Shown one piece after another: positions 14,644-42,263 of a DNA stretch of 64,000 nt (within the stretch, counting starts at the first letter, position 1; every line of letters starts with the position of its first letter). The translations under genes and the position numbers were made by a program. Below the pieces are notes generated by a model. It was given only the letters and a program-made list of their open reading frames with translations, searched no databases and was not told where the DNA came from. This DNA comes from Candidatus Saccharimonadales bacterium (GTDB lineage Bacteria > Patescibacteriota > Saccharimonadia > Saccharimonadales > Saccharimonadaceae). The DNA lies in assembly GCA_047974525.1 (NCBI GenBank), contig JBKECJ010000007.1, positions 36,508-100,507 of the forward strand, read 5' to 3'.

Positions 14644-15480
14644 CTAACCTCTCTTCCCTTCATGACGACTGCGAACAATCATCTTACTTGTTTTCTTGTT
14701 GCGACGAGTGCGGTAACCAAGTGTCAACTGACCCCATGGTGTGCGTGGAGCTTTACCAGCACCGTGACGGCCACCGTCACCACCACCGTGTGGGTGATCC
14801 GTTGCGTTCATTACGACGCCACGTACGCTTGGGCGAATACCCTTGCGACGGCTGCGACCAGCTGCACCAATCTTGATGTTCTGATGCTGGACGTTGCCAA
14901 CGACGCCGATATTTGCTTGGCATGCTACCAAAACCTTACGAACTTCGCCAGATGGCATACGTAGAGTGGCATAACCATTCTCTTTTGCCATTAGCTGAGC
15001 CGATGTTCCTGCCGAACGCACCATCTGTGCGCCCTTGCCAGGAGTTAGCTCAATCGCGTAGATCTGCGTACCAACTGGGATCTGATCGATCGCCATTCGG
15101 TTGCTAGTCTCTACTGGAGCTTCGGTACCAGTCTTAATTGTTGCGCCTTTTTTCATGTTCGTATCGGCGAGCACGTAATAATACGTACCTTCCTGATCCT
15201 TAACACGAGCAATGCGTGCGCTGCGGTTTGGATCGTATTCAATCTCTTCCACAGTCAAAGTCAAATTCTCAGGTAGGTTGTAGGTCATCAAGCGATAATG
15301 TCGCTTCACGCCGCCACCGCGGTGACGTACAGTAATTCTACCTTGGTTGTTCTTACCGGCATTTTGCTTTTTACTCTTCGTCAAGCTCTTTAGGGGCTTT
15401 TTCGTAGTGATTTCGTCGAAATCCTGAGTAGTTTTCTGGCGTTGTGCCGGAGTAGTTGGGCGATATGCTTTAATACTCAT
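14644..15480 (-). CDS. rplB: 50S ribosomal protein L2
   Basis: 278 aa; ...MNATDHPHGGGDGGRHGAGKAPRTPWGQ... L2. Confidence 0.9.
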   Translation of the reverse strand: MSIKAYRPTTPAQRQKTTQDFDEITTKKPLKSLTKSKKQNAGKNNQGRITVRHRGGGVKRHYRLMTYNLPENLTLTVEEIEYDPNRSARIARVKDQEGTYYYVLADTNMKKGATIKTGTEAPVETSNRMAIDQIPVGTQIYAIELTPGKGAQMVRSAGTSAQLMAKENGYATLRMPSGEVRKVLVACQANIGVVGNVQHQNIKIGAAGRSRRKGIRPSVRGVVMNATDHPHGGGDGGRHGAGKAPRTPWGQLTLGYRTRRNKKTSKMIVRSRHEGKRG

Positions 15481-15902
15481 TATTTATCTCCTCTGTTGCC
15501 AGTACGGCGACGAGCAAATAGCCCGGCTTTCTTGGTCTCAGTACTCTGCTTTTCGTCAGCTGCCTTTACAGTGGTCTTCTTTTCCTCTGTTTCAGTAGGT
15601 TTGGTCTCTTGTACTGCCTCTTCATCAAATACCTTGATCTTGTCGCCTTCTTTCAAGGTCACGTAAGCGATCTTGCGGTCTTGGCGATAAGTTGTACCAG
15701 GGTATGCATGTTTGCCGCGGCTAAACTTTGTGGCTTTGCCTTTGCGAACTACGATGCGGGTCGAAGTAACAGTTACTTTGTATTCCTCGGCAACGGCTTT
15801 TGCGACTGCTTGTTTGCTTGCGCCTTTTGGCACGTTAAACATATAAGTACGCTTTGTTTGGGCCGTATAAGCCTTTTCGGTCTGGATTGGACGGATTAAC
15901 AT
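15480..15902 (-). CDS. rplW: 50S ribosomal protein L23 (Glu/Lys/Thr-rich C-terminal tail)
   Basis: 140 aa; MLIRPIQTEKAYTAQTKRTYMFNVPKGASKQAVAKAV... L23. Confidence 0.85.
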   Translation of the reverse strand: MLIRPIQTEKAYTAQTKRTYMFNVPKGASKQAVAKAVAEEYKVTVTSTRIVVRKGKATKFSRGKHAYPGTTYRQDRKIAYVTLKEGDKIKVFDEEAVQETKPTETEEKKTTVKAADEKQSTETKKAGLFARRRTGNRGDK

Positions 15903-16505: not shown

Positions 16506-17126
16506 TTACTCCTTTCCCTCCACCATAATCAACCCTTTATTTGGGCCAGGCACAGCGCCTTTAATGCCAATCAGGTTGTTTGCGGTGTCAATATAAGCAA
16601 CTACGAGATTCTTCACAGTTACTTGATCGTGACCCATGCGTCCAGGCATTTTCCTGCCCTTAACGACCTTCTGTGGGTACATCGAGCCAATCGAACCTAC
16701 GCGACGTACGTTGCCGTTACCGCCGTGAGTGTGCTTTGACTCGTGAAAGTTATGTCGCTTAATCGTACCAGCAAACCCCTTACCCTTGCTAATACCGGTT
16801 ACCTGTACTTTGTCTCCCAAAGCAAAAGTCTCCACAGTGATTTCACTGCCGAGAGCCAATTCTTCTGGAATACTGTCTACACGGAACTCGCGTACATATT
16901 TAGGTTTAATATCTTTACCGGATTTTTTAACGTGTCCGGACACGGCCTTGCTCAGATTCTTACCCTGACCATATCCCAATTGCACAGCACTATATCCGTC
17001 GGTGTCGACAGATTTAGTCTGAGTTACTGTGCAAGGGCCAGCTTGAAGAATCGTCACTGGAGTGACAACGCCGTCTTCACTGATAATCTGGGTCATACCA
17101 ATCTTGGTGCCGAGAATCGCTTTCAT
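16506..17126 (-). CDS. rplC: 50S ribosomal protein L3
   Basis: Start at MKAILGTKIGMTQI (ATG 17126). The track ORF begins 8 codons further upstream. Promoter-like TTTACT-17-TAAAAT ~100 nt upstream on the minus strand. Confidence 0.85.
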   Translation of the reverse strand: MKAILGTKIGMTQIISEDGVVTPVTILQAGPCTVTQTKSVDTDGYSAVQLGYGQGKNLSKAVSGHVKKSGKDIKPKYVREFRVDSIPEELALGSEITVETFALGDKVQVTGISKGKGFAGTIKRHNFHESKHTHGGNGNVRRVGSIGSMYPQKVVKGRKMPGRMGHDQVTVKNLVVAYIDTANNLIGIKGAVPGPNKGLIMVEGKE

Positions 17127-17620
17127 TTTTGAAGCGCCCTTTCTTTCCATTAAAATACCCAGACTTGTGGGCGGTATCTTATCGTTAAGACCTACACCTT
17201 GCGTCCAGATATCAATGCTTGATATTTAATGTTACTCGAGTATTTTATCACACTTTCCACCTCAAGTAAAGGGTTTCACCAGAGATTTTTTACATGAAAA
17301 AGCTCCGATTTCTACAATCGGGGCCGCGCGACATTTAGTGGCGCTTATTATATATGCTTTCTGCAATATTTCGGCGTAAGCCCAAACCTAGTAACTTCCA
17401 CGTAAGCTGCCATGAATCCGCCCACACTACAGCCGAGCAGCGCACGATTATGGGCATAGATACTATAAATGATCACAATGCAGAGTATGCTAAGTTTTAA
17501 AAACAGCATATTGAACCCCCCCAATTCCATATGGCAACGCCATCTCAAACAGCAAACTGCATCATTGCAGCCATCTCGCTATTATATCACAAATCACACA
17601 AAATATCAAGCTTATTTTAA

Positions 17621-17650
17621 GGTTTCACCAAAGGAAAAGGGAGCGTCGTA
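17621..17650 (-). terminator. rho-independent terminator after the vWA-lipoprotein gene
   Basis: GGGAGCGT-CGTA-ACGCTCCC (17629-17648), followed on the minus strand by TTTTCC. A second hairpin with a T-run lies at ~17299-17325. Confidence 0.6.
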
Positions 17651-17682
17651 ACGCTCCCTTGAATATATGCATAAAATTCTTT

Positions 17683-19371
17683 TTACATCTGTACATTAAA
17701 CAGATTACGCAGCTGGTTGATCAGATCTTCGTTATTCGCGTTGATCAGTACTGCCTCGTTGATCTGAGAGAGCTTTTGCAGCTCGCCACTTGCGCCGCCG
17801 CTGGAGTCCAGATTATACCCGATACTATGAATCGGTATCTGTAATCCGCCAACAATCGGCGTAATTCTGCTAAGCTTGTAGCCCTCATTTTGCTGCCCGT
17901 CACTCAGGACAAACAGCATCAACTTGGCGTCCGGCACTTCTTTCTGCTTCTCGAGCAGCATATTTAGCCCCACCAGCACGGCGTCGTACGTTGCCGTACC
18001 GCCACTTGCCGAGAGCGACTTTACTGCTCCGGAGAAATACGCTCGTTGCGTATCGTCAAATTGGTCTATCTCGAGATTGACATACACCTTGCTCGAATAC
18101 GTGACCAGCCCTACATAGCTTTCGTAGCTAATGAATGACGAGGTGTTGATTAGCGCATCCTTAAGTGAATTCAGCGGCAAACCATCCATACTACCAGAAA
18201 TATCGGCGACAAAAACCGCGATAATCGGGCGGCCGCCATCTTTGTTCTGTTTCCAGAGTTTCTGTGCGGCAATATAGCCTGCGCCATCGAGTCCAGGAGA
18301 CTGCTCGACATAGTCGTCGTGCAGATTGAATCCCTTTTCGTCCGCCAGCTTTTGGCTTTCGGCGTTCAGGCAATACTCCACAAACATTCTGGCGGCTTCC
18401 TGCTTCTCTGCAGACACATAATCAAAGGTGTAAACCGGATGATCATGCCGAATGCCCTGCGGCGTATAAACATAATCTTTGAGCTCCGGCGTATTGTGAT
18501 ATGCCTGCTCCTCCATAACCATTGCTTTGATGATGCCTTTGCTTGCCTGATCCCTCAAAACTGCTGTCGTGTAGGCCACGGGCGGCGAGTTTCTCTGGTA
18601 TTCAAGCAGTTTTTCGGAGGCGGTCGTCGATAGCGGATTGCTGGGATCAAACGCGTGCAGCATGGCAGTAAAAATATTTAGCCCCGTGCTGCTCGTAAAC
18701 GGATTCGTATAGGCAAAGGTCAGGTCGCCAGCCAAGCTTGCTTCCAGTACTTTGTCTACCGTAACCTCGCCATATTCGGCGATAAACGTATCGTAAGTGT
18801 TTTTCTCCATCAGGATTCCAGCGGTGTTGCCAATAATGCGGTCTTCCAGCGTAATTACGCCAAAGCCGCGCGCTTTAAGCATTTCGCCCCAAGCGTAATT
18901 CGATGGGGCGGCAACATCGGGACGATAATCGCCGTCAGCGATATATGTCACGATCTCGCCAGAGGTAATCTTGCGTATTGAAACGCTAACGGATCTGCCG
19001 TCAATGGTAAACCCTTCTTTGTTGAATCGTTCTGCGATGATATTCATCCAGTCGTCGGGCGCCGCCGAGCTCATCTCGGTGGCTGCCGCAATCTCAATGT
19101 TTATCTGGCCTTTTCCTTCAACCGTAATTGGAAACGTATCTATGCTCGCCAGCGTATCGGCCGCCGTCGTCTCTGATGAGTAAATATCGAGCGGCGCCGT
19201 AACGCTTTCGGTCTTAATGGTGCTCACAAAAGTGCTCAGTTCCTTCAAGGCATCGTCATAGCTTAATGCATCCTCGCGGTCGGGGTTCGTGCTGCTGACG
19301 TCGCTGCACCCAGTAAGGGTCGCAAACACCAACAGTATTGCAAGTACAAAACAAGAAAAACGCTTTTTCAT
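17683..19371 (-). CDS. lipoprotein with C-terminal von Willebrand factor A (vWA) domain and N-terminal solute-binding-like domain
   Basis: Start at MKKRFSCFVLAILLVFATLTGC (lipobox; AGGAGG RBS; ATG overlaps the upstream gene's stop). vWA MIDAS motif ...IIAVFVADISGSMDG... with downstream ...GGTATYDAV... and ...LFVLSDGQQN... Confidence 0.65.
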   Translation of the reverse strand: MKKRFSCFVLAILLVFATLTGCSDVSSTNPDREDALSYDDALKELSTFVSTIKTESVTAPLDIYSSETTAADTLASIDTFPITVEGKGQINIEIAAATEMSSAAPDDWMNIIAERFNKEGFTIDGRSVSVSIRKITSGEIVTYIADGDYRPDVAAPSNYAWGEMLKARGFGVITLEDRIIGNTAGILMEKNTYDTFIAEYGEVTVDKVLEASLAGDLTFAYTNPFTSSTGLNIFTAMLHAFDPSNPLSTTASEKLLEYQRNSPPVAYTTAVLRDQASKGIIKAMVMEEQAYHNTPELKDYVYTPQGIRHDHPVYTFDYVSAEKQEAARMFVEYCLNAESQKLADEKGFNLHDDYVEQSPGLDGAGYIAAQKLWKQNKDGGRPIIAVFVADISGSMDGLPLNSLKDALINTSSFISYESYVGLVTYSSKVYVNLEIDQFDDTQRAYFSGAVKSLSASGGTATYDAVLVGLNMLLEKQKEVPDAKLMLFVLSDGQQNEGYKLSRITPIVGGLQIPIHSIGYNLDSSGGASGELQKLSQINEAVLINANNEDLINQLRNLFNVQM

Positions 19372-20114
19372 AAAGAAATTTCCTCCTTTTTGAGTGAATC
19401 GCGGATAACTTTCATCCACGCTTCCAATGTGGTCTGGCTATTGTCGTTCTGCTCACTAATCAAATCAGCGAGGTCGGCTAGGAACTTCTTAATATTATCA
19501 AGCTCCACCTGATTGCTTTTGAGTACTGCTTGTATCAACTCCACATGAGTCGAATACTTTTCATCACCCGCAAAAACGGCGTCGTCGTCCATCTCGGACA
19601 CAATGCCACGGTTGATTACCTTCCTGAAGTTTTTGCAGATAAACTGCTCAACCTCATTGAGTAATTCTTCCGTATTACGCAGGTAGTCGGCCTCGTTCAA
19701 ATCGAGGAGATTCTTAAGTCTTTCTTGCCTATGATCCATTGAGTCCATTTGGCTCTCACACTTATCAATTTCGCTCGCGAGATCAGGTCTCTGCTCCTTG
19801 AGCTTGATTAGCATGCGCCGGATATCTGCCGGATCATAAGTTTTCGCAGAATACGACAGCGTCGATTTCGACTCTGCCATTTTCTCTTGTTCGATTCGCC
19901 GATCTTCCGCTGATTTTGCCAGTCGTGCTCTAACAGTCGGTATAATACCAACTCCCGTAGCAACGATGCCAGCAGCGACAGCGATGTAAGGCACTATCGA
20001 AAGGATTGAGAACACTCGTATTCCCAACCCGATTACAATTGCAGTTTCGGCGGTCTTCACGATAACCAAGGCAACAATGCCAAGAGCTATCAGGCCGAGA
20101 CCTACTTTCTTCAT
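19368..20114 (-). CDS. membrane protein with two N-terminal TM helices and a cytoplasmic coiled-coil; XpaC-like
   Basis: Start at MKKVGLGLIALGIVALV (ATG 20114, RBS AAAGGAGG). Architecture, and adjacency to a TelA/YaaN homolog, recall the Bacillus yaaN-xpaC pair. The longer track ORF overlaps the neighbouring lipoprotein gene and is rejected. Confidence 0.4.
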   Translation of the reverse strand: MKKVGLGLIALGIVALVIVKTAETAIVIGLGIRVFSILSIVPYIAVAAGIVATGVGIIPTVRARLAKSAEDRRIEQEKMAESKSTLSYSAKTYDPADIRRMLIKLKEQRPDLASEIDKCESQMDSMDHRQERLKNLLDLNEADYLRNTEELLNEVEQFICKNFRKVINRGIVSEMDDDAVFAGDEKYSTHVELIQAVLKSNQVELDNIKKFLADLADLISEQNDNSQTTLEAWMKVIRDSLKKEEISL

Positions 20115-20163
20115 CGCGAATCCTCCTTTTTCAAGAATTTCATGCATGTTAATAGGTGTTATT

Positions 20164-20499
20164 TCAGTTCGATATGAGCACGAGATAGCGCTCCCAGGTA
20201 AGGGGCTTTCCATCTTCGGGGTCATATAAAGGAGCGACTCCCGTAAGGGTATCACCCTCGCCGGCGTCGTTGCGGTCGTATCCAATATACATATAATTGG
20301 TCAACCTCTCGCGAAAGACCGTGTAGTATCCGCCCTCGCTTTCGGCAACTTTTACAAAGCCTACTGCGCGTTCGGTGTCTGCAAAATCCTCTTGAATCGG
20401 TATCGCCACAACATCATTTGGGGCTGGAGATGCTCCGCAACCCGCTAACATGCATGATACAAAGACCATGATACAAACTAGCGTAGAAATCCGTTTCAA
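20164..20499 (-). CDS. small lipoprotein
   Basis: 111 aa; signal peptide with lipobox MLAGCGASPAP. Confidence 0.55.
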   Translation of the reverse strand: MKRISTLVCIMVFVSCMLAGCGASPAPNDVVAIPIQEDFADTERAVGFVKVAESEGGYYTVFRERLTNYMYIGYDRNDAGEGDTLTGVAPLYDPEDGKPLTWERYLVLISN

Positions 20500-20518
20500 A
20501 TTTCACCCTCCCTCTTTC

Positions 20519-21622
20519 TCAAACTGTGCGCGGTGTTGTCAGCCGAACTTTTAGCTGATTCTCAATTTCGATCAACTGCTGCTCGGCAGCAATGCGCTTT
20601 TGTCTGCCTTCTTGCTGGATCACCAGTACTTCGTCAAGCGTCGAGATAATACTTTCGTTGGTCTTGACCAGCGTTTCGATATCCACGATTCCGCGCTCAG
20701 ACTCCTGAGCGGCCGCAATCGTATTCTGCTTGAGTAGCGTCGCGGTCTCGTTGAGCAGCTCGTTGGTTACGTTTGTAACCTCGCGTTGCGCTTCGATTGC
20801 GCGTCGGGTATGCTGCATGCCGAGGGCAAGTAGCATTTGGTTTTTCCAGAGAGGTATGGTGTTCGCGATACTGGTCTGAATCTTATCCGCCATAATCACG
20901 TTCGTATTCTGCACCATCCTTATTTGGGGCGCCATCTGAATACATATCGTCCGCGTCAGCTGCAAATCGTAGATTCGCTTCTCAAACCTATCGCATTGCT
21001 GCTCAAGGTCGCTCGCGCGTTGTGCGTCTTCCTGCGAACCGCTAAGTGCGGCCTTTTGTCGCATTTCCTCAAGCTCGCCCGTCCTCACCTCTTCAAGCTT
21101 TTGCTTGCCGGCAAGAATATACATGGTAAGCTCTTTGAAGTACTGCAGGTTGCTCTCGAAAAGCGAGTCCAGCATAGTGACGTCCGCGAGTAGTGTGAAT
21201 CTGTGACCTTTTAAGTCGTCACAAATCTTATCTACATTTGCGCTTACGTCGGCATACTGAGCCTGCAATTCGGCAACGATGTTCTTGCCCTTCTGGAACA
21301 GTCGAGCAAGTCCTTTCTTCTCCTCTGTCGGCCTGAAGCCTCTGATCTGAACCACCAGACCGGAAATCATGTCTCCAACTGTGTCCAAATCCTTAGCTTT
21401 TACGCCTTTGAGCGCCGAGTCCGAAAACTGCGACGACTTATTCTGCGACGATTCGCCATAACGCGAAATTGTTGTCGTGTCATGGATATTAATCTTCGCC
21501 GCGAAGTCCTTGATCTTCTGGTGTTCCTCAGGGGTTAAATTTGCTGCTTCCTTCTCGATGACTGCAAGTTCCGTGGGTTTAGCTGCGGTTCCGGTTTCCA
21601 GAACCAATTCAAAATCAGACAT
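20519..21622 (-). CDS. TelA/YaaN-family (toxic anion resistance-like) protein
   Basis: 367 aa, all-helical. N-terminal ...LTPEEHQKIKDFAAKINIHDTTTISRYGESSQNKSSQFSDSALKGVKAKDLDTVGDMISGLVVQIRGF matches the conserved TelA/YaaN N-terminal region. RBS TAAGGAGG. Confidence 0.7.
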   Translation of the reverse strand: MSDFELVLETGTAAKPTELAVIEKEAANLTPEEHQKIKDFAAKINIHDTTTISRYGESSQNKSSQFSDSALKGVKAKDLDTVGDMISGLVVQIRGFRPTEEKKGLARLFQKGKNIVAELQAQYADVSANVDKICDDLKGHRFTLLADVTMLDSLFESNLQYFKELTMYILAGKQKLEEVRTGELEEMRQKAALSGSQEDAQRASDLEQQCDRFEKRIYDLQLTRTICIQMAPQIRMVQNTNVIMADKIQTSIANTIPLWKNQMLLALGMQHTRRAIEAQREVTNVTNELLNETATLLKQNTIAAAQESERGIVDIETLVKTNESIISTLDEVLVIQQEGRQKRIAAEQQLIEIENQLKVRLTTPRTV

Positions 21623-21699
21623 ACCAGTTCCTCCTTATCAAACTGAATTTTAACAAATACGAGGTAGGTGCAAAAAAAAGAGACCAACCCTATCCCCTA

Positions 21700-21728
21700 A
21701 TTATACACCAACTCGGCGATTTTGTCAA
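21700..21728 (-). promoter_or_regulatory. consensus sigma70-type promoter of the TelA-lipoprotein-XpaC-vWA operon
   Basis: Minus strand TTGACA (21728..21723), 17 nt, TATAAT (21705..21700), about 70 nt upstream of the TelA ATG. Confidence 0.6.
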
Positions 21729-21773
21729 GAACAACTCTGTTATGCTTGCTTCGTCTTATCTGTTAACGTGCGA

Positions 21774-21808
21774 CAAAAAAAGACCCGATCTCATTGATCG
21801 GGTCTTTC
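21774..21808 (-). terminator. rho-independent terminator immediately downstream of rpsJ
   Basis: AGACCCGATC-TCATT-GATCGGGTCT, a 10-bp stem, followed on the minus strand by TTTTTTT. Confidence 0.65.
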
Positions 21809-21822
21809 CAATATCTAAGAAA

Positions 21823-22155
21823 TTACATCTTAATTTCGGCATCAACACCAGCTGGAAGCGATAGATTCTGCAAGCTATCGATAGTTTTTGGCGTTGCGTT
21901 CATCACGTCGATCAAGCGCTTGTGCACTTTCATCTCAAACGCCTCACCACCGGTCTTGTAGACGTGTGGGGATTTCACAACTGTGAAGGTCGAACGCTTG
22001 GTAGGTAGTGGTACTGGACCACTCACAGTAGCGCCTGTACGGATAGCCGTATCTACGATTTGTTTTGCTGATTGGTCGATCACGCGGTGATCGTATGCCT
22101 TTAGGCGGATGCGGATTTTGAGGCCAGCATCTTTGGTTGCTTTAGCTTCTGCCAT
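21823..22155 (-). CDS. rpsJ: 30S ribosomal protein S10
   Basis: 110 aa; ...[42 protein letters not shown]... S10. Confidence 0.9.
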
Positions 22156-22242: not shown

Positions 22243-22272
22243 TGTGTATCGAATTATATATAAAATATCAAA
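22243..22272 (-). promoter_or_regulatory. sigma70-type promoter of rpsJ
   Basis: Minus strand TTGACT (22272..22267), 18 nt, TATAAT (22248..22243). Overlaps the T-tract of the upstream gene's terminator hairpin GCCCTCGG-TAATATA-CCGAGGGC (22280-22302). Confidence 0.55.
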
Positions 22273-22317
22273 AAAAGTCAAGGAAAAAGCCCTCGGTAAT
22301 ATACCGAGGGCAGATTT

Positions 22318-22866
22318 TTACGCTGGTGTTTTCAATAGCATCTTGTGATGCGCTTTCATCCAGCCATAGTACGCCATTTTAATATCAGCTTCAAGCTGAT
22401 CTAGCTCGTCCCAGCGAGCTTTATTGAAATTCCTGAATTCATTATGATGCAACCAGGCTCCGAACTTCAGCGTGTCGCCTGCAATGCTAAGTGCATGTAT
22501 CTCGCTACCACACCCCCACAAAGCGCACCCCTCCTCATACGAGAAGTAGGCTTCGCAAGCTCCAAAGCAGGGCTTAAACAACGTGGTGCCCCGGACGTTA
22601 GCAACGGTTGGCGTGGCGACGCATATGCAGCCGTTGTACCACCGATGGTCTTCGCCATGCGCGTAGAAATTGTAATCGATATACACCGACAAGTACACGG
22701 CCGGCAAACCGTCGACAACTACCGACCGAATCTCCTCCTCGATCAGCCGCTGCAGGACGGATTTCAACTCCCTACATTCATAAGCACGCTCGCGCGCGCC
22801 ATAGTAGCTCTTGATTGCCTTGAATGCTTTCTCCTCAGCGTAGCGACTCATAAGCTTCATTTCCAA
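22318..22866 (-). CDS. hypothetical Cys/Trp/His-rich protein
   Basis: 182 aa ORF bracketed by terminator hairpins; ...WYNGCICVATPTVANVRGTTLFKPCFGACEAYFSYEEGCALWGCGSEIH...; no family recognised. Confidence 0.5.
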   Translation of the reverse strand: MEMKLMSRYAEEKAFKAIKSYYGARERAYECRELKSVLQRLIEEEIRSVVVDGLPAVYLSVYIDYNFYAHGEDHRWYNGCICVATPTVANVRGTTLFKPCFGACEAYFSYEEGCALWGCGSEIHALSIAGDTLKFGAWLHHNEFRNFNKARWDELDQLEADIKMAYYGWMKAHHKMLLKTPA

Positions 22867-23035
22867 TTTCTGTTTCCCTCCCTAAACACAAAAAACGGCG
22901 CTACTAGATTGAACTCCCATGGGACTCAATACTAAAGAACACCTCCATTGTAGGTAATTATAGCACACTAAACATGAATTGTCAATAATAAAGAAAAAAG
23001 CCCCCGAGCATAGAACTCGGAGGCAATTTTTAATC

Positions 23036-23593
23036 TTAGATATCGAAGCCAATGACGTATTGATTGTCATTGCGGCCTGGCTTGATCAGCCAGTTGTGAT
23101 ACAGCTCGAACACGTCATCAAGCAATCGTATCGTTTTCGGCTTCCAGCCCTCATTGGGGTTTTCGTTCTGACGGCAGATAAAACAACCTTGTACCAAGAA
23201 TCTGACAAAAACTCGTTCTGCCTCAAGTCGATCAGGCAGCACAACGTATTTACAGAATTGCCCGCTACAATCTTCGAGGTCGCTTTTCAGCAGTTCGTTC
23301 TTGAAGTTGATGGTGGGCTCAGCCGGACCTAGTTCGCTATCTTCGCCAGGGTTGAGCGAGTAGAACTGCTCAGCCTCAGGCGATGACGCAAATGCAAAAT
23401 GCGTCTTGTAGTGAGGTCTCTTCTCGTCGAGGCGCTGTCCGACCAATGATATGATCAGTACGCAATCCTCCAGTTCCGAATAGCCCAAGATTTCTCTGCA
23501 CTCAGTAATAATTTTATTGAGTACCAACTGAGTCAGCTCTGCATCCCCTCCCTCTGCTTTTAGTGGATAAATTCTCGGATAAATAAACTCCAT
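23036..23593 (-). CDS. hypothetical protein
   Basis: 185 aa ORF with a downstream terminator hairpin GCCCCCGAG-CATAGAA-CTCGGAGGC (23000-23024) and a T-run; no family recognised. Confidence 0.5.
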   Translation of the reverse strand: MEFIYPRIYPLKAEGGDAELTQLVLNKIITECREILGYSELEDCVLIISLVGQRLDEKRPHYKTHFAFASSPEAEQFYSLNPGEDSELGPAEPTINFKNELLKSDLEDCSGQFCKYVVLPDRLEAERVFVRFLVQGCFICRQNENPNEGWKPKTIRLLDDVFELYHNWLIKPGRNDNQYVIGFDI

Positions 23594-23746
23594 ATTGGCA
23601 TGACCTCCAGAAATTTTTTTGGGTAGCCATAGATTAAAAAATTAAGTTACGCCCCCATCTAATCATTATACCACACCACTAGCGTTTTGTCAATTAGGCA
23701 TAGAAAAGGCCCAACAAGAATATGTCGGGCCCACAGCAAGGAGGTA

Positions 23747-24364
23747 TTAGGAATCAATGTCTATATCAAAACCTTTGAGCGAATTGACAAGCGAATCGAT
23801 ACCTAAATACCAAGCTACATTGAGACCGCATCGCAGGGCGGATTCCAGATTCTCTCGACGGTCGTCGATAAATAATATCTCAGACGGCAGTAGCTCCAGA
23901 TCGCTCACTACGTATTCAAACGCACCATCATCGGACTTTACCATGCCGATGTCGTTCGAAAAGTAGCAGGCGTCGAAATAATCGAGTAGCTCACTAGTAT
24001 TTCGGATGTACTCTACCCATTCGTGCAGGTTATCCGAGAATAACATTAGTGGGTATTTGCCGCGCAGTCCATCTAGCACGCGGATAACTTCTTGGTTTGG
24101 CTGGTTAAGATTCTGGCGGATTAGCTCCATCAGTCTTTCGGGCGTGATAGTCCATCCTGTACCTTTCAACAGGTGGTCGATGATGTATTCGCGCTCAGTC
24201 ATTCTGCCGCGCATGAGGTTTAGAAGCGCCTCGTTTGCGATGCGTCGCTGCTCCATGAACTCCTCGGGCTCTATTGGGAACTCCGCCGCAATTAAATATT
24301 CAACACCGTCGTACCCCGTCGCAACCACTTCCCCGTAGTCAATAATTATTGCTTTTATTGCCAT
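23747..24364 (-). CDS. HAD-superfamily hydrolase
   Basis: Start at MAIKAIIIDYGEVV (ATG 24364, RBS AGAGGAGG). Motif I-like IIIDYGE and motif IV ...ILFIDDRRENLESA. Confidence 0.55.
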   Translation of the reverse strand: MAIKAIIIDYGEVVATGYDGVEYLIAAEFPIEPEEFMEQRRIANEALLNLMRGRMTEREYIIDHLLKGTGWTITPERLMELIRQNLNQPNQEVIRVLDGLRGKYPLMLFSDNLHEWVEYIRNTSELLDYFDACYFSNDIGMVKSDDGAFEYVVSDLELLPSEILFIDDRRENLESALRCGLNVAWYLGIDSLVNSLKGFDIDIDS

Positions 24365-24492
24365 TAAGTTGCCTCCTCTAAAATAACTACAGTCACTATA
24401 TGCGTATACCGTCTCTATAATTATAACATAATTGTGCGAAAACAAAATAGCCACCCCTGTAGGAGTGGCTAAATTTGCTCTCAACTAATAAA

Positions 24493-25677
24493 TTAGTCAA
24501 GAATCTTGGTGATAACACCAGAACCAACAGTCTTGCCACCTTCGCGGATAGCAAAGCGGTCGTTGTTGTTCATAGCAATTGGAGCCATCAACTTCACCTT
24601 GAAGGTAACGGTGTCGCCAGGCATGACAATTTCTTTGTCTGCTGGAAGTTCGACTTCGCCAGTAACATCAGTAGTTCGGAAGTAGAATTGTGGCTTGTAG
24701 CCCTTTGAAAATGGAGTGTGGCGGCCACCTTCCTCTTTCTTAAGGATGTAAACCTCAGACTCAAAGCTGGTGTGTGGGGTGATCGAACCTGGCTTGGCAA
24801 TAACCTGACCACGCTCAATATCATCACGCTCAATACCGCGGAGGAGAAGACCAGCGTTGTCGCCAGCTTGACCTTCGTCGAGGGTCTTCTTAAATGCTTC
24901 GATACCGGTAACAACCGACTTCGTAGTATCTTTAAGACCAACGATTTCAACTTCGTCGTTCAATTTTACGATGCCCTGCTCGATACGGCCGGTAGCAACT
25001 GTACCACGACCCTTGATCGAGAAGACGTCTTCAACTGGCATCAAGAATGGCTTGTCGAGCTCACGTGGTGGCTCTTCTACCCATTCGTCAACAGCCTTGA
25101 CGAGATCCATAATAGCCTGTTCGCTATCTGCATCACCTTCAAGAGCCTTGGTTGCCGAACCCTTGATGATTGGAGTGTTGTCGCCATCGTAGCCATATTT
25201 GCTAAGAAGTTCACGAACATCCATCTCAACTAGTTCAACTAGTTCTGGATCAGCAAGATCCATCTTGTTCAAAAATACAACGATTTTTGGTACGTTCACC
25301 TGGTGAGCAAGAAGTACGTGCTCACGAGTCTGTGGAAGTGGGCCGTCGTTTGCAGCAACCACGAGGATTGCGCCGTCGATCTGAGCAGCACCGGTAATCA
25401 TGTTCTTAACATAGTCGGCGTGTCCTGGCATGTCCACGTGAGCGTAGTGACGCTTCTCGGACTCATATTCGTTGTGAGAAGTTGCAATCGTAATACCGCG
25501 CGCCTTTTCTTCTGGGGCGTTGTCGATCTGATCATATGCAACCGCTTTGTTTACTTCCGAAGGAAGTTTCTTTGCTAGCACGTTAGTGATAGCGGCAGTG
25601 AGAGTAGTTTTACCGTGGTCAACGTGGCCCATTGTACCAACGTTTACGTGAGGTTTGCTACGGTCAAAATTTGCCAT
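24493..25677 (-). CDS. tuf: elongation factor Tu
   Basis: 394 aa; [15 protein letters not shown]..., [18 protein letters not shown]. Promoter-like TTTACT-17-TATAAT upstream (25761..25733, minus). Confidence 0.95.
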
Positions 25678-36613: not shown

Positions 36614-37465
36614 TCATATGGAATGAAATTTGCGATACTGAGCTTCAAGATCATTGTCTACGACGTGGGCGTACATTGCAGTCGTATCCATCGAAGAGTG
36701 TCCCATCATAGCGCTCAGATAGCGCATATTGCCGTTGTTTTTTAGAAAGTTAGTTGCATACGAGTGGCGTAACGTATGGGGCGTTACGCGATTAGACTCT
36801 AGCCCTGCTTTTCTCGCGGCGTTACGTATGACGAGCTGTATGGTTGTATGATTTATCCGCTCTCTATGCTGGAACGAAACTATGAGAGCCTCACAGTTGT
36901 CTTTACGAGTCGCGAGATAAGACTCCATGAGTTGTTCTGTTCTCTCGTCGATAAAGCAAAGCCTTGGCTTACTACCCTTTCCAATAATAGTAAACCGGCG
37001 CTCGACGATCTGCCCTCGATTAAGAGATATTAGCTCGGATAGCCTGATTCCAGAGCTATAAAGCAGAGAGACAATAAACTGTGCTCGAATGTTGCAAGCA
37101 GAGTTTATCATCGCCGTGACTTCTTCGGAGGTTAAAAATCTTGGGACTGTCGAGGAGCGCTTTGGTACCGGTATCATACCTGCTTTTATGCAAGGTATTT
37201 CTCGAATATTTAGGTAGTTCAGGACTGTACGCAGTCTGACGATATAATTGCGAACAGTATTCTGCGATCGCCTCTTCGAGAGATAGTTCTTCCAATCTCG
37301 GACATCGTCGAAGGATAATTCAGAAATTGGCTTATCGGGTACAAAAAGAAGCAATGCTTTCTTGCATACCTCGTGGTTTTCCTCGGTTTTAACGGATTGG
37401 TTCTTAAATCGAATATAATCGTTCTTATATAATTCAAATGCCTCTGAGATTAGTAATTCTCTCAT
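36614..37465 (-). CDS. tyrosine recombinase / phage integrase
   Basis: 283 aa; C-terminal ...HTLRHSYATNFLKNNGNMRYLSAMMGHSSMDTTAMYAHV... (R, H-x-x-R, Y catalytic pattern). Confidence 0.85.
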   Translation of the reverse strand: MRELLISEAFELYKNDYIRFKNQSVKTEENHEVCKKALLLFVPDKPISELSFDDVRDWKNYLSKRRSQNTVRNYIVRLRTVLNYLNIREIPCIKAGMIPVPKRSSTVPRFLTSEEVTAMINSACNIRAQFIVSLLYSSGIRLSELISLNRGQIVERRFTIIGKGSKPRLCFIDERTEQLMESYLATRKDNCEALIVSFQHRERINHTTIQLVIRNAARKAGLESNRVTPHTLRHSYATNFLKNNGNMRYLSAMMGHSSMDTTAMYAHVVDNDLEAQYRKFHSI

Positions 37466-37527
37466 TAAAAAAGCACTCCTCCCTTAATTATTCGTAGGGT
37501 TTCAGAGTGCTGATTTGTTCTTTCAAA

Positions 37528-37908
37528 TTACGCCGCTGCTGGCCGTACCACCCGATTCCGATAGTCTACGTAGTTTCCTTTTGTGTGTCTTGGAGCCGTC
37601 ATTGGGCTTAACTGACCTTTGCCATCTAGCTCGTCCTTAAGAATTCTGCTGAAGACTCGTGACCTGTCTCGTATTTCGCTGTCTGTCCTGACTATTGACG
37701 CAATCGTTCTGTATCGTTGCTCACCTAGTGCCTTGAAGCATTTGCAATGCCAAGGCGTCATGTCTGGATTACTTGTAGAGATTAGCTCTCCGCCTATGCT
37801 GATGACCTTCTCTCTGATTTCTAAAGCTGATAGTTTCCTATCTTCAAATTGCAATTTGCTATTTACTCCTTGCAATTTAGAAGTTGCAATTTGTTTGATT
37901 GACTCCAT
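37528..37908 (-). CDS. hypothetical prophage protein
   Basis: 126 aa ORF upstream of the integrase, same strand. Confidence 0.4.
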   Translation of the reverse strand: MESIKQIATSKLQGVNSKLQFEDRKLSALEIREKVISIGGELISTSNPDMTPWHCKCFKALGEQRYRTIASIVRTDSEIRDRSRVFSRILKDELDGKGQLSPMTAPRHTKGNYVDYRNRVVRPAAA

Positions 37909-38514
37909 CTGTTATTACCTCCAAATTTTTAACGCACGAAAGGTCTTACGCTCTGTTGACCTCTTAGCGTCTATTTTTTATGATAAGAAAAGATAATGCA
38001 AGCAAGAGCGTTACTCGAAATTAAAAATTCTTATGTTTGTCAAGAAATCAAAAGACCTCTTGCGAGGTTGTTTGATTTTGGTCGATACCATAATACTAGC
38101 GCACTTTAAGCGTTTTGTCAACCTGCGCCCCGTGCATTTTACTTTCTTCTCCGCATCGATATAATAGATAGTGGGTGCCTTAGCATGGATTAGCAATCGC
38201 GCTCAGCGTCAACGACGCTAGTAGGTGCTGCGCGTCGATTTTATTAAATTTAATTTCAAATGGAATCTGGGAATATCTCAGATCAAAAAAGAGGATTCCA
38301 CAAATAATCTCGAGAATATTAACTTTGATCATGATAGGAGTAGTAATGGTAACATTTATAACTTCAATTAGTTCGACGTGCGGCGCTGAGCGAGATGGCT
38401 AATCCAAGAATGTTTACTCGTTTCCGCGCCCGCCGCGTGGTGGGCGCCGGCGCGCTTTAGTTCCACCACGAAGTGATATATAATGGAGATACAGCCTTGT
38501 TTGTAGGCTGCGTG

Positions 38515-38590
38515 CTAGCTTAGCTCAGTTGGTAGAGCAGAGGCTTTAAGACCCTCAGGCCATCGGTTCAAATCCAGATAGCTAGCACAT
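38515..38590 (+). tRNA. prophage-encoded tRNA-like gene with atypical anticodon/T arms (anticodon UAA if standard numbering)
   Basis: GCTAGCT-TA-GCTC-AGTTGGTA-GAGC gives canonical acceptor and D arms. The anticodon stem GAGGC/CCCTC has a C.C mismatch and the loop is TTTAAGA. The T region ATCGG-TTCAAAT(C)-CAGAT is imperfect. 3' acceptor strand AGCTAGC. Preceded by TGATATATAAT at ~38473-38481. Confidence 0.55.
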
Positions 38591-38652
38591 AATCTACAAA
38601 CTACGAATATTGGGTAAGCTCGGAAGCGGGCGCGGTTAAGATAGGAGAAGAG

Positions 38653-38922
38653 GTGAGTAAGTTCAAGGATCAGCTAGTCATGGCGTTTATTGCGAAGAAT
38701 TCTGGTGACTTTCCACAATACTACGTCACGGACGAGACGAAGCTGTATCGTATCGAAGACGAGGATTATTTGCTGGCGCAGGCGGTCGTTAGTGGGGCGG
38801 TGGACGAGGAGCGCTTCTATTTGATTGCGAAGAAGCACGTGTGCGGTACAGCTATTTTAAATATGAGCGGCGCGAGGGAAATAACTTCTGACGAAGCAAA
38901 AGAGTTATCTAGTCATGCGTGA
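38653..38922 (+). CDS. hypothetical protein, first gene of a coupled pair
   Basis: GTG start with RBS AGGAGAAGAG; 89 aa. Its stop overlaps the next start (ATGCGTGA). Confidence 0.5.
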   Translation: MSKFKDQLVMAFIAKNSGDFPQYYVTDETKLYRIEDEDYLLAQAVVSGAVDEERFYLIAKKHVCGTAILNMSGAREITSDEAKELSSHA

Positions 38923-39880
38923 TGTCGGCGGGTACCTTCAGGCATTCTCGGCGCTCGAGGCGGAAATAAATGCGCTCAGCTACTCAATTTTATTTGACGA
39001 CAACCAAATTAATACGTATTCAATGAAAATCGCCGAACTCGTCATGCGATCCGGCATTGAGCTCGAATCGGTGGCGAATGATATATTCAGGGGATGGACG
39101 AGTGAGGATGAGATAAAGAATGACGACGGGGCGGCCGAAAAATCATTCGCGTGGCTAAAGAAAAGTAGCGGATGGAAGCTTGAGCAAAAACAGATCTCAA
39201 TACTTTCTCCTTCTATGTTTTTCTCCAGAACTTTCTCTCCGTCGTTTGCTCCGTTTGGGTATAAGAAAAATTCGTCTGACGACTACTATTCTGCCTACAA
39301 TAGCATTAAGCACGACCGCGCCAAGAACTCGCATAAGGCGAACCTGAATATACTGATCCGATCTATGGGCGCGCTGTACGTTCTGCTGACATACTTTTAT
39401 GGCTCTAGGATAAATTCGACAATATTCTCGGCTAGCGTAGCCGATGCGAAGCTCAGTTTTTTGTCCGATTTTGGGATGGATTTCAGTAGCGACCTAGACA
39501 GGTCTATATTTCTTACTTTGTACGATTGGAGATACTACGACTATAAAGAGGCGCACGGCGAAACCCTGAGAGGACTTATCGAAACAATCAAGCGCAACGG
39601 ACGAGAAGACGCGGTTAGAAAAATCGCGAGGTTCCCTAGGACGTCCTACGATACGATTTTTAGATTTATCCTTAGAAACTCCTCGGAAGGAATTAGTATG
39701 CCGGAAAGAAACAAACTCGCAAGGAGTCTCCTAGCGGACGGACTGCTAAAAGAGCTCGAAATGCGAACGAAAGTAAACTACAACTACGAGCGAATTTACG
39801 CTGAGTCCGAGTCGGAGCTTGCCGACGAGAACGAAACGTATAGCCGTCGCATTTGCGATAATTTTGACGACCATATATAG
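38915..39880 (+). CDS. hypothetical protein with a possible HEPN-like R-x4-H motif; candidate abortive-infection/defence cargo
   Basis: 321 aa. Motif ...YNSIKHDRAKNSHKANL... (R-AKNS-H). The only plus-strand genes at this end of the prophage. Hairpin TAGTCGC-TGCTATT-GCGACTA downstream. Confidence 0.5.
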   Translation: MRDVGGYLQAFSALEAEINALSYSILFDDNQINTYSMKIAELVMRSGIELESVANDIFRGWTSEDEIKNDDGAAEKSFAWLKKSSGWKLEQKQISILSPSMFFSRTFSPSFAPFGYKKNSSDDYYSAYNSIKHDRAKNSHKANLNILIRSMGALYVLLTYFYGSRINSTIFSASVADAKLSFLSDFGMDFSSDLDRSIFLTLYDWRYYDYKEAHGETLRGLIETIKRNGREDAVRKIARFPRTSYDTIFRFILRNSSEGISMPERNKLARSLLADGLLKELEMRTKVNYNYERIYAESESELADENETYSRRICDNFDDHI

Positions 39881-39998
39881 AAGCTTATCGTCTGACGATC
39901 TGGCGGACGGACAGAAAAATAGTCGCTGCTATTGCGACTATCTTCCTACTCATTGTTATCGAAAAACTCTTTTCTTAAATCATAGTTTACACTAAAAA

Positions 39999-40214
39999 CT
40001 ACTTCGATTCAAACATTATCGTTTTGACAAAAGTTTTCTTCTGTCTGTCGATCTCATTGAATGCGTATCCAAGCAACATATTAACTGTCATATTTAATGA
40101 CAATGATTGCTCTTCGGATAGCTTGCTCACCCTTCCATATAGTTCTTTGTCCGTTATTCTTAGCGCAATTGGAATTGTTTTATTCGCGTCTCCAATCTGC
40201 TTAATAGCTTGCAT
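39999..40214 (-). CDS. small prophage protein (71 aa)
   Basis: Internal start MQAIKQIGDANKT... with RBS GGAGAGGAG; the longer track ORF has no RBS. Confidence 0.4.
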   Translation of the reverse strand: MQAIKQIGDANKTIPIALRITDKELYGRVSKLSEEQSLSLNMTVNMLLGYAFNEIDRQKKTFVKTIMFESK

Positions 40215-40324
40215 TTTGCGCTCCTCTCCATTTTCTTCTTTTTTTGATTGCTTTTGTAGTAGGTTCAACTTAAATATGGGCACACCTCCCATAAGCCAGA
40301 CGGACAGTAGCAAGTAATTGCGCT

Positions 40325-40594
40325 CTACAACTCGACGACTGTTACGCTATAAGCCAGATGTACGTCGGTCTCTGACTCAACTTTGATTTTAAACTCGTCG
40401 CAGAGATTTCTCACCTGCTCCAAGTTTTGGCTCGAAGTAAACCATAACTTAACTGCACCGCTCTTTTGACTGTATTCTGCAATCTCGGCGTTTTCGGCAA
40501 ACCGATTCGCTATTTCTAGCATGGTTGTATTAGCATTCACATTGATTCGTTTCAACTCTATCTGGTAGAGCGAAAAGACTTTTTGTTTTAACAT
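40325..40594 (-). CDS. small prophage protein (89 aa)
   Basis: ORF adjacent to the 71-aa gene, same strand; terminator hairpin AATGCAAC-ACTTTT-GTTGCATT then TTTT at 40671-40697 upstream. Confidence 0.4.
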   Translation of the reverse strand: MLKQKVFSLYQIELKRINVNANTTMLEIANRFAENAEIAEYSQKSGAVKLWFTSSQNLEQVRNLCDEFKIKVESETDVHLAYSVTVVEL

Positions 40595-40695
40595 TGAGTA
40601 TGTTATCGTCTGGCTTTTTAAGCTGCATAGCTTACCTGCTACTCATCTAGTATAGCGCATTTGCAATAAAAATGCAACACTTTTGTTGCATTTTC

Positions 40696-41469: not shown

Positions 41470-41470
41470 A

Positions 41471-42248: not shown

Positions 42249-42263
42249 ACATCTCCTTTCGTT

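What the first reader, a model, noticed from the sequence alone, without database searches (positions are those of the whole stretch)
17299..21808. Stand-alone TelA/YaaN - lipoprotein - XpaC-like - vWA-lipoprotein operon wedged between rpsJ and rplC
rpsJ normally leads directly into rplC. Here rpsJ is followed by a strong terminator (21781-21805). After that comes a perfect TTGACA-17-TATAAT promoter (21728..21700). Then four tightly packed minus-strand genes follow: a TelA/YaaN homolog, a small lipoprotein, a two-TM coiled-coil membrane protein resembling XpaC, and a lipoprotein with a C-terminal vWA domain (MIDAS DISGSM). Two terminators (17629-17648 and ~17299-17325) precede rplC, which has its own promoter-like TTTACT-17-TAAAAT. 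The TelA-XpaC pairing is known in Firmicutes. A vWA lipoprotein partner and insertion into the S10 operon is not a textbook arrangement, and it suggests an envelope-stress module co-located with ribosomal genes.
Basis: partly seen in the sequence, partly recalled or inferred. Interest (0 to 1): 0.6.

Follow-up and report, generated by a model that had tools for sequence, protein, structure and literature searches.

The report
Borrowed TelA membrane operon in Saccharibacteria
A tiny epibiotic bacterium (Saccharibacteria) carries a membrane-protection operon acquired from gut Clostridia, and it sits between two ribosomal genes because that junction holds different cargo genes in nearly every relative examined, not because it has anything to do with ribosomes.

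Summary
Between rpsJ (21823-22155) and rplC (true start 17129) lie four co-oriented genes with their own perfect promoter and flanking terminators.

Three corrections apply:
- The membrane protein is not detectably XpaC. It belongs to an unnamed ~250-aa family.
- The window is a Saccharibacterium (Nanosyncoccaceae-like). In 29 related species the rpsJ-rplC gap ranges from 179 to 9295 bp and holds about 20 unrelated gene families. rplC always has its own promoter and a covarying leader RNA. The split is therefore normal for the lineage and the site is a cargo hot spot.
- TelA-membrane protein-SBP/vWA is a conserved three-gene operon of gut Clostridia (72/66/77% identity to an Oscillospiraceae MAG). 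Its phylogeny indicates transfer into Saccharibacteria.

A relative at ~81% nucleotide identity carries the trio directly upstream of rplC, without the small lipoprotein.

I infer an envelope or membrane stress function from the family. No link to translation is supported. Interest is moderate: an undescribed but widespread TelA operon variant, cross-phylum transfer, and a new rplC leader.

The parts
24493..25677 (-). tuf (EF-Tu). Conserved upstream anchor of the variable region.
   Evidence: NCBIfam EF-Tu, E=1e-209. 81-94% identical in relatives.
22318..24484 (-). Three cargo genes in the tuf-rpsJ gap: HAD-IA hydrolase 23747-24484, unknown 185 aa 23036-23593, unknown 182 aa 22318-22866. Perfect consensus promoters lie at 23693-23665 and 22985-22957.
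   Evidence: None of the three has a homologue in the 80 related loci.
22253..22281 (-). rpsJ promoter TTGACT-17-TATAAT (11/12). It follows a terminator at 22311-22289.
21823..22155 (-). rpsJ (ribosomal protein S10), a monocistronic unit here.
   Evidence: PF00338, E=3e-33.
21781..21805 (-). Intrinsic terminator after rpsJ.
   Evidence: -24.5 kcal/mol followed by U7, z=-8.05.
21700..21728 (-). Promoter of the TelA operon, TTGACA-17-TATAAT (12/12).
   Evidence: The promoter and 5' UTR are conserved in the relative L088 but not in the Clostridial operons.
20519..21622 (-). telA (toxic anion resistance/YaaN family), 367 aa, no signal peptide, all-helical.
   Evidence: PF05816, E=1.1e-113. 72% identical to an Oscillospiraceae MAG. 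AF2 model shows long helical hairpins.
20164..20499 (-). Small lipoprotein (111 aa, lipobox LAGC). An optional accessory gene of the operon.
   Evidence: Only 2 hits in 5.8 billion proteins. Present in L092 between telA and the membrane gene. Absent from L086 and the Clostridial trios. A 54% homologue stands alone between rpsJ and rplC in L032.
19368..20114 (-). Membrane protein (248 aa): N-terminal transmembrane helical hairpin plus a C-terminal helical bundle. Belongs to an unnamed family.
   Evidence: 312 cluster representatives. No Pfam family.
17683..19371 (-). Lipoprotein (562 aa, lipobox LTGC) with SBP_bac_11 and vWA/MIDAS domains. Translationally coupled to the preceding gene through an ATGA overlap.
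17637..17660 (-). Intrinsic terminator of the TelA operon.
   Evidence: -16.8 kcal/mol, z=-3.4. Conserved in L086.
17279..17635 (-). Extra mini-cassette: promoter TTGATA-17-TGnTATAAT (17609-17581), a hydrophobic small ORF (17348-17548, or 53 aa from ATG 17509), and a weak hairpin (17321-17305). Absent from relative L086.
17242..17270 (-). rplC promoter (TTTACT-17-TG-ATAAAAT). It corresponds to TTGACA-17-TGnTAnAAT in 35 relatives.
17130..17235 (-). Conserved structured 5' leader of rplC, ending in the Shine-Dalgarno sequence.
   Evidence: 15 base pairs, 7 with compensatory changes, 96.9% of cells paired, 0 of 500 shuffles as good. No Rfam match.
16506..17129 (-). rplC (L3), first gene of the long ribosomal-protein operon.
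   Evidence: PF00297. 73-83% identical in 80 loci.

Best explanation
The window comes from a gut-associated Saccharibacterium (Nanosyncoccaceae-like).

In this lineage tuf, rpsJ and the rplC-led operon are separate transcription units. Each has its own near-consensus sigma-70 promoter and a terminator, and rplC also has a structured leader RNA. The two junctions between these units tolerate inserted DNA. In different species they hold different cassettes of the form promoter, gene(s), terminator.

The cassette here is a three-gene operon typical of gut Clostridia: telA, a ~250-aa membrane protein, and an SBP/vWA lipoprotein. It entered a Saccharibacterial ancestor by horizontal transfer and acquired a host-style promoter. 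In this genome it also holds an optional small lipoprotein gene.

Inferred mechanism (not shown):
- The lipid-anchored SBP/vWA protein faces outward. It binds a small anion or metal-dependent ligand through its solute-binding fold and MIDAS site.
- The transmembrane hairpin protein, made in a fixed ratio with it through translational coupling, connects it to the cytoplasmic side.
- On the cytoplasmic side the helical bundle of the membrane protein recruits the helical TelA protein to the membrane.
- This stabilises or remodels the membrane against envelope-active compounds, as reported for TelA/XpaC in Firmicutes.

It has no functional connection with the ribosomal genes.
For: Lineage: L3 is 73-83% identical to 80 Saccharibacteria genomes.

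Hot spot:
- The rpsJ-rplC gap is 179-9295 bp and the tuf-rpsJ gap is 196-5012 bp in 29 species.
- The gaps hold many unrelated families.
- A terminator, promoter and leader precede rplC in all 35 close relatives.
- 5 of the 6 near-consensus promoters in the window lie in this region, one per cassette.
- Such promoters occur at 0.30 per kb in the equivalent interval of relatives against 0.08 per kb elsewhere.

Conserved operon:
- The same gene order is found in Oscillospiraceae, Lachnospiraceae and 'Firmicutes' MAGs.
- It also appears in at least 17 metagenome contigs.

Transfer:
- Every named TelA or membrane-protein relative is from Clostridia.
- The window and L088 TelA sequences nest inside the Clostridial operon clade.
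- TelA is absent from all 80 related Saccharibacterial loci.

Not an assembly artefact: contigs from six samples (L086-L091) carry the trio at ~81% nucleotide identity. In L086 the trio joins a rplC leader that is 92% identical to the window's.

Mechanistic clues:
- The ATGA overlap between the membrane gene and the vWA gene is conserved.
- The lipobox Cys and the MIDAS residues are invariant.
- The membrane protein is predicted as a transmembrane hairpin plus helical bundle, with a positively charged stretch after the second helix.
- TelA has no signal peptide.
- In E. faecium, xpaC/telA affect daptomycin binding and phospholipid domains (PMC6811118).
- TelA and vWA proteins are proposed to form sub-membrane structures in Ter systems (PMC7824862).
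Against: - Function is inferred only from family membership and domain architecture. No experiment exists for this trio.
- The membrane protein has no detectable homology to XpaC.
- The structural searches returned only generic helical bundles, and the models are of moderate confidence (pLDDT 69-73).
- The topology of the membrane protein is predicted, not shown.
- The membrane protein-vWA pair also occurs without TelA (L097). It occurs with an unrelated 165-187 aa helical protein in three rumen Saccharibacteria. TelA may therefore be an accessory rather than the effector.
- The direction of transfer rests on an unbootstrapped NJ tree and on taxon labels of MAGs.
- Composition of the insert is not atypical, so the transfer is not recent, or the donor had a similar composition.
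Confidence: 0.6

Rival explanations
1. Surface adhesion module. The SBP/vWA lipoprotein is an adhesin that the epibiont uses to attach to its host bacterium or to the gut matrix. The membrane protein and TelA serve as its anchor or support.
For: - vWA/MIDAS domains commonly mediate metal-dependent protein-protein adhesion. The MIDAS residues are intact and invariant.
- The protein is a predicted surface lipoprotein.
- Three other Saccharibacteria keep a divergent membrane protein-vWA pair without TelA in the same hot spots.
- The vWA protein is the most conserved component, at 58-77% identity, against 26-32% for the membrane protein.
Against: - The same operon is widespread in Clostridia, which are not epibionts.
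- TelA is cytoplasmic and is linked elsewhere to membrane stress.
- The SBP fold suggests a small-molecule ligand.
Confidence: 0.15
2. Ter-like defence against phage or xenobiotic entry. TelA plus a vWA protein form a membrane-associated barrier, as proposed for Ter systems.
For: TelA and the TerF vWA protein are proposed to form sub-membrane structures that block the entry of phage or xenobiotics (PMC7824862). The site behaves like a variable island, and defence genes often collect in such islands.
Against: - None of the four proteins hits PADLOC.
- No TerB, TerC or TerD genes are nearby.
- The vWA domain here is extracytoplasmic and fused to an SBP domain, unlike TerF/TerY.
- Other cargo at this site is mostly metabolic or surface proteins.
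Confidence: 0.1
3. Functional coupling to translation. The module is placed inside the S10 cluster so that envelope stress genes are expressed together with ribosomal proteins.
For: Physical position between rpsJ and rplC, and the same orientation as both.
Against: - A strong terminator follows rpsJ and the module has its own promoter.
- rplC has its own promoter and leader in all relatives.
- Cargo at this site differs in nearly every species.
- In Clostridia the trio lies in unrelated contexts.
Confidence: 0.04
4. Assembly or binning chimera. A Clostridial fragment was mis-joined into a Saccharibacterial contig.
For: The nearest homologues are all Clostridial. GC3 of telA and the vWA gene is slightly high (0.59-0.60).
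Against: - The insert is flanked on both sides by Saccharibacterial genes.
- Six independent samples give contigs with the trio. One joins the vWA gene terminator to a Saccharibacteria-type rplC leader at 92% identity.
- The promoter is of the lineage's own type.
- Tetranucleotide composition is not an outlier (z from -1.6 to -0.2).
- No Clostridial sequence is closer than 77%.
Confidence: 0.02

Closest known systems
xpaC-telA (xpaC-yaaN) two-gene cluster of Firmicutes
   Same: A TelA-family protein is encoded beside a small membrane protein that has N-terminal transmembrane helices and a helical soluble domain. The cluster is linked to envelope stress (daptomycin binding and phospholipid domains in E. 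faecium, PMC6811118).
   Different: - The partner here is not a PF10112 member.
- It lies downstream of telA. In Roseburia (L096) the xpaC-like gene lies upstream.
- A third gene for an SBP/vWA lipoprotein is always attached, with translational coupling.
Ter (tellurite resistance) systems with TelA and the vWA proteins TerF/TerY
   Same: A TelA-family protein co-occurs with a vWA/MIDAS protein. The pair is proposed to form a membrane-proximal assembly (PMC7824862, citing Anantharaman et al. 2012, which I could not read).
   Different: - No TerB, TerC, TerD or TerZ genes are present.
- The vWA domain here sits in a secreted lipoprotein fused to a solute-binding fold, so it lies on the opposite side of the membrane from TelA.
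Chromosomal integration hot spots flanked by core genes
   Same: Highly variable cargo lies between strongly conserved core genes (tuf, rpsJ, rplC) across species. No integrase is required. This statement about hot spots in general rests on my own knowledge of the literature, not on a paper read here.
   Different: - The flanks are the start of the S10/spc ribosomal cluster, which is usually regarded as one of the most syntenic regions of bacterial genomes.
- Each cargo unit carries a near-consensus promoter of the host's own type.
SBP-vWA 'VWA domain-containing proteins' on cyanobacterial plasmids
   Same: Full-length similarity (~30%) over both domains.
   Different: The neighbours are an SPFH protein, a Ser/Thr kinase and a protease. 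There is no TelA and no membrane-hairpin protein.

Membership tests
TelA / toxic anion resistance (PF05816) | Full-length match to the family profile above the curated cut-off | tested here: met
   380 bits against a cut-off of 30, E=1.1e-113, profile positions 1-331 of 332.
XpaC (PF10112, Halogen_Hydrol) | Match to the family profile | tested here: not met
   No hit even at E<=10 for the window protein or two Clostridial orthologues. Only 1 of 70 family members gives a marginal hit, E=0.0055.
XpaC (PF10112, Halogen_Hydrol) | Profile-profile similarity to a bona fide telA-linked XpaC-like protein | tested here: not met
   hhalign probability 1.5% with the 19-sequence profile and 2.0% with the 70-sequence profile, against L096 4635-5969.
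XpaC (PF10112, Halogen_Hydrol) | Gene order: xpaC immediately upstream of telA | tested here: not met
   Here the membrane gene lies downstream of telA. In Roseburia the PF10112 gene lies upstream.
XpaC (PF10112, Halogen_Hydrol) | Architecture: N-terminal transmembrane helices plus a helical soluble domain | tested here: met
   AF2 model: helices 3-38 and 40-82 form a hydrophobic hairpin, followed by a helical bundle at 95-247. This is a resemblance only.
vWA domain with MIDAS (PF00092/PF13519) | Profile match and the DxSxS...T...D metal-site residues | tested here: met
   PF00092 E=8e-14 and PF13519 E=3e-9. D390, S392, S394, T459 and D491 are invariant in 9 homologues.
Solute-binding protein, SBP_bac_11 (PF13531) | Profile match over the whole domain | tested here: met
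   56 bits against a cut-off of 25, E=6e-15, profile positions 4-226 of 227. The ligand is not testable here.
Bacterial lipoproteins | Signal peptide with a lipobox L-x-[GA]-C | tested here: met
   LAGC in the small protein and LTGC in the vWA protein. The Cys is invariant in 9 vWA homologues. Presence of Lgt and LspA in this genome was not tested.
Ter system (terZABCDEF type) | TerB, TerC or TerD genes in the neighbourhood | tested here: not met
   Neighbouring genes are rpsJ, rplC, a HAD hydrolase and unknowns. None is found in the Clostridial loci either.
Canonical S10 operon (rpsJ-rplC-rplD... co-transcribed) | rpsJ immediately followed by rplC with no intervening terminator or promoter | tested here: not met
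   A terminator follows rpsJ. rplC has its own promoter and leader in all 35 relatives. Gaps are 179-9295 bp. In the Nanosyncoccus group no rpsJ lies within 10 kb of rplC.
Integrative mobile element / genomic island | Integrase or transposase, tRNA target, flanking direct repeats | tested here: not met
   No such genes lie in the gap. The only tRNA is at 38514. There are no flanking repeats beyond chance.
Known anti-phage defence systems (PADLOC) | Profile match of any component | tested here: not met
   No hits at E<=0.01.

The most novel reading that the evidence does not exclude
Two linked proposals.

1. The tuf-rpsJ-rplC junctions of Nanosyncoccaceae are a lineage-wide cassette-exchange site. 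Ultra-small epibionts use it to capture and express foreign genes, under host-type consensus promoters, from co-resident gut bacteria such as Oscillospiraceae. Those bacteria may be their physical partners. The flanking ribosomal genes would supply the homology needed for recombination between species.

2. The captured TelA-hairpin protein-SBP/vWA trio is an undescribed trans-membrane system. An extracellular anion- or metal-binding lipoprotein would control a cytoplasmic TelA scaffold.
Probability: 0.25. Interest if true: 0.65.

Novelty: new variant of a known kind. Interest (0 to 1): 0.45.

Why it matters
1. TelA proteins are widespread and tied to resistance against nisin, daptomycin and tellurite, but their mechanism is unknown. 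A conserved three-gene operon pairs TelA with a defined membrane partner (312 cluster representatives) and an extracellular ligand-binding/MIDAS lipoprotein. This gives a concrete, testable architecture.

2. It is a clear case of gene flow from Clostridia into a reduced-genome Saccharibacterium. This bears on which organisms these uncultured gut epibionts live with.

3. The start of the 'universally syntenic' ribosomal block is broken and variable in this family. That matters for methods that rely on 16 co-located ribosomal proteins, S10 included, for binning and phylogeny.

4. The rplC leader is a candidate new ribosomal-protein regulatory RNA in the Candidate Phyla Radiation (CPR).

Tried and rejected
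- Exact-sequence look-ups of the window's TelA and S10 found no contig, although the identical proteins are in NCBI (MFV0485323.1 and MFV0485321.1).
- Rfam found nothing relevant in 15.5-26.5 kb or in a relative's rplC leader.
- PDB sequence searches were uninformative.
- I tested whether the 165-187 aa protein that replaces TelA in three rumen Saccharibacteria is a truncated TelA. hhalign probability was 7%, with a shared YG..Q.K motif. This is inconclusive.
- The 5' UTR of the operon shows no significant structure (z about 0), so an attenuator is not supported.
- No flanking repeats, integrase or tRNA were found.
- No phage record holds a vWA homologue. Plasmid homologues are only distant cyanobacterial ones.
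- The key review of Ter systems (Anantharaman et al. 2012) could not be read. Whether it already lists this trio is therefore unchecked.
- The Saccharibacteria genomics papers I searched do not mention tellurite, vWA or this hot spot.


Full report
**What is there**

All genes in the region lie on the minus strand. Reading downstream from tuf (24493-25677), the order is:
- Three cargo genes: a HAD hydrolase and two unknowns.
- rpsJ (21823-22155).
- A hairpin of -24.5 kcal/mol followed by U7.
- A 12/12 TTGACA-17-TATAAT promoter at 21728-21700.
- telA (20519-21622; PF05816, E=1e-113).
- A 111-aa lipoprotein (20164-20499; TTG start, lipobox LAGC).
- A 248-aa membrane protein (true start ATG 20114).
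- A 562-aa lipoprotein (true start ATG 19371, lipobox LTGC), whose start overlaps the preceding stop codon as ATGA.
- A terminator at 17660-17637 (-16.8 kcal/mol).
- A small extra cassette at 17279-17635.
- The rplC promoter and leader, then rplC.

It also has a vWA domain (E=8e-14). Its MIDAS residues are invariant across nine homologues.

**Which organism**

L3 from the window is 73-83% identical to 80 Saccharibacteria genomes. Most are rumen, gut and termite MAGs labelled Nanosyncoccaceae or Nanosyncoccus. The identical TelA and membrane proteins are deposited for a 'Candidatus Saccharimonadales bacterium' MAG on a 147-kb contig.

**The position is a lineage-wide cargo site**

- In 29 related species where both genes are in view, the rpsJ-rplC distance ranges from 179 to 9295 bp. 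The tuf-rpsJ distance ranges from 196 to 5012 bp.
- The intervals contain many unrelated families:
  - a nucleotidyltransferase that sits in either gap, depending on the species;
  - glutamine synthetase III;
  - a P-type ATPase;
  - an adenylosuccinate-synthetase-like protein;
  - a CmpB-like membrane protein;
  - giant proteins of 1470-2375 aa;
  - many orphans.
- In the more distant Nanosyncoccus group, rplC is preceded by a release-factor gene with 0-3 variable genes between them. No rpsJ or tuf lies within 10 kb.
- In all 35 close relatives rplC has its own promoter (consensus TTGACA-17-TGnTAnAAT), usually just after a terminator. A conserved ~110-nt leader follows.
- The leader folds into three nested helices of 15 pairs, 7 of which show compensatory changes. 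96.9% of cells are paired, none of 500 shuffles matches this, and slid controls give 23-40%. It has no Rfam match.
- Five of the six near-consensus promoters in the 64-kb window (0.31 expected) lie between 17.5 and 23.7 kb, one in front of each cassette. In relatives such promoters are about four times denser in this interval than elsewhere.
- There is no integrase, tRNA or flanking repeat.

The split of rpsJ from rplC is therefore normal for this family. The site simply tolerates insertions between independent transcription units.

**What the cargo is**

telA, a ~246-aa membrane protein and a ~560-aa SBP/vWA lipoprotein occur in this order, tightly spaced, in several sources:
- an Oscillospiraceae MAG (72%, 66% and 77% identity to the window proteins);
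- termite-gut 'Firmicutes' contigs;
- a Lachnospiraceae MAG;
- at least 17 further metagenome contigs from rumen and other guts. In these TelA has diverged to 32-50% and the membrane protein to 26-32%, while the lipoprotein stays at 58-68%.

The membrane protein belongs to a coherent, unnamed family with 312 cluster representatives, all about 250 aa. It has no Pfam model.

The membrane protein-lipoprotein pair also occurs without telA (L097). In three rumen Saccharibacteria it occurs in the same two hot spots behind an unrelated 165-187 aa helical protein. Similarity of that protein to TelA is inconclusive.

The small lipoprotein is optional:
- It is present in the same position in L092/L093.
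- It is absent from the Clostridial trios and from the closest relative.
- A 54% homologue stands alone between rpsJ and rplC in the termite Saccharibacterium L032.

**Origin**

- Every named relative of TelA and of the membrane protein is from Clostridia. The only Saccharibacterial entry is the window itself.
- None of the 80 related Saccharibacterial loci encodes TelA.
- In an NJ tree the window sequence and its relative (91% identical) form a pair nested within the Clostridial operon clade.
- Contigs from six independent samples (L086-L091) carry the trio at about 81% nucleotide identity. They lack the small lipoprotein and the mini-cassette. The terminator of the vWA gene is joined directly to a rplC leader 92% identical to the window's. 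The same perfect promoter lies upstream of telA.
- That promoter and the 5' UTR are not shared with the Clostridial operons.

This excludes a chimera. It shows that the acquisition predates the split of two Saccharibacterial lineages and that the operon now uses a host-type promoter. Composition is only slightly shifted: GC3 is 0.59-0.60 for two genes, and tetranucleotide usage is unremarkable.

**Relation to XpaC**

In Roseburia a PF10112 protein lies upstream of telA and no vWA gene follows. The protein here gives no PF10112 signal. Only one marginal hit appears among 70 family members. hhalign probability against the Roseburia protein is 1.5-2%.

The AF2 model (pLDDT 73) shows a hydrophobic helical hairpin followed by a helical bundle. 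The basic stretch after the second helix, together with the MKK N-terminus, suggests that both ends are cytoplasmic. This is my inference from the positive-inside rule.

**How it probably works (inferred)**

TelA lacks a signal peptide and is predicted to form long helical hairpins. It would act on the cytoplasmic face of the membrane.

The bundle of the hairpin protein is its likely docking site. The lipid-anchored SBP/vWA protein is outside. It is made in a fixed ratio with the hairpin protein through translational coupling, which is conserved in L086, L022 and L025.

The solute-binding fold is of the type found in molybdate, sulfate and iron binding proteins, and the MIDAS site is intact. 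These features suggest that the protein recognises an anion or a metal-bridged ligand.

Published data tie TelA/XpaC to daptomycin binding and phospholipid organisation (PMC6811118). TelA with vWA proteins has also been linked to membrane-proximal assemblies in Ter systems (PMC7824862).

I therefore favour a membrane or envelope stress-protection system with an extracellular sensing or binding component. The rivals are adhesion, phage or xenobiotic exclusion, coupling to translation, and assembly error. They are listed with their evidence in the rival explanations. The last two are effectively excluded.

**Verdict**

The 'insertion into the S10 operon' is ordinary for this lineage. The module is a horizontally acquired copy of a widespread but uncharacterised Clostridial TelA operon. 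It is a new variant of known TelA-partner systems, not a new kind of system.

The more general points of interest are the ribosomal-gene-flanked cargo site in Saccharibacteria and the covarying rplC leader.

Noticed in passing
window 17130-17270 (- strand); L001-L035 about 175 nt upstream of rplC: A conserved promoter plus a ~110-nt structured leader lies upstream of rplC in the window and in 35 related Saccharibacteria. It has three nested helices of 15 pairs, 7 with compensatory changes, 96.9% of cells paired and 0 of 500 shuffles as good. No Rfam family matches. It is a candidate ribosomal-protein (L4 or L3?) autoregulatory leader.
   Followed up: partly
window 17279-17635 (- strand): An orphan mini-cassette with an extended -10 promoter (17609-17581), a hydrophobic 53-66 aa ORF (17348-17548) and a weak hairpin. 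It is absent from the ~81%-identical relative L086, and no homologue occurs in any fetched locus. It could be a small membrane peptide or toxin.
   Followed up: partly
window 22318-24484 (- strand): The tuf-rpsJ gap holds three further cargo genes: a HAD-IA hydrolase and two proteins of 185 and 182 aa with no family match. Perfect TTGACA-17-TATAAT promoters lie at 23693-23665 and 22985-22957. None of the three has a homologue in the 80 related loci.
   Followed up: partly
L036-L080 (Nanosyncoccus group), 6 kb upstream of rplC: rpsJ and tuf are not within 10 kb of rplC. The conserved upstream neighbour is a class-1 release factor (356 aa, PCRF+RF-1), with 0-3 variable genes between it and rplC. 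S10 is thus detached from the 'rp16' syntenic block in this family.
   Followed up: partly
L022 6595-9723; L025 3373-6412; L029 6201-9241: Three rumen Saccharibacteria carry a divergent variant of the module. A 165-187 aa helical protein replaces TelA, followed by a membrane protein (26-29% identity) and an SBP/vWA lipoprotein (58-63%). The variant sits in either the rpsJ-rplC or the tuf-rpsJ gap. In L029 the membrane gene appears disrupted.
   Followed up: partly
L002, L005, L008, L013-L017, L020-L023, L026-L028, L030, L033: A 396-476 aa nucleotidyltransferase-like gene (PF00483) is the most common cargo. It lies in the tuf-rpsJ gap in some species and in the rpsJ-rplC gap in others, as if it had moved between the two junctions.
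   Followed up: no
window 15480-15902 (- strand): rplW (L23) is 140 aa long and has a ~45-residue Lys/Glu/Thr-rich C-terminal extension.
   Followed up: no
L124 (Stanieria plasmid NC_019765.1) 3503-6707: A distant SBP-vWA homologue (~30% identity, full length) on a conjugative cyanobacterial plasmid sits beside an SPFH-domain protein, a Ser/Thr kinase and a serine protease. This is another pairing of the architecture with a membrane-scaffold protein.
   Followed up: no
window 37000-46000: Tetranucleotide composition deviates most here (z up to 2.3). GC skew changes sign around 38-40 kb, next to the only tRNA (tRNA-Leu, 38514-38588) and a plus-strand gene at 38915-39880.
   Followed up: no
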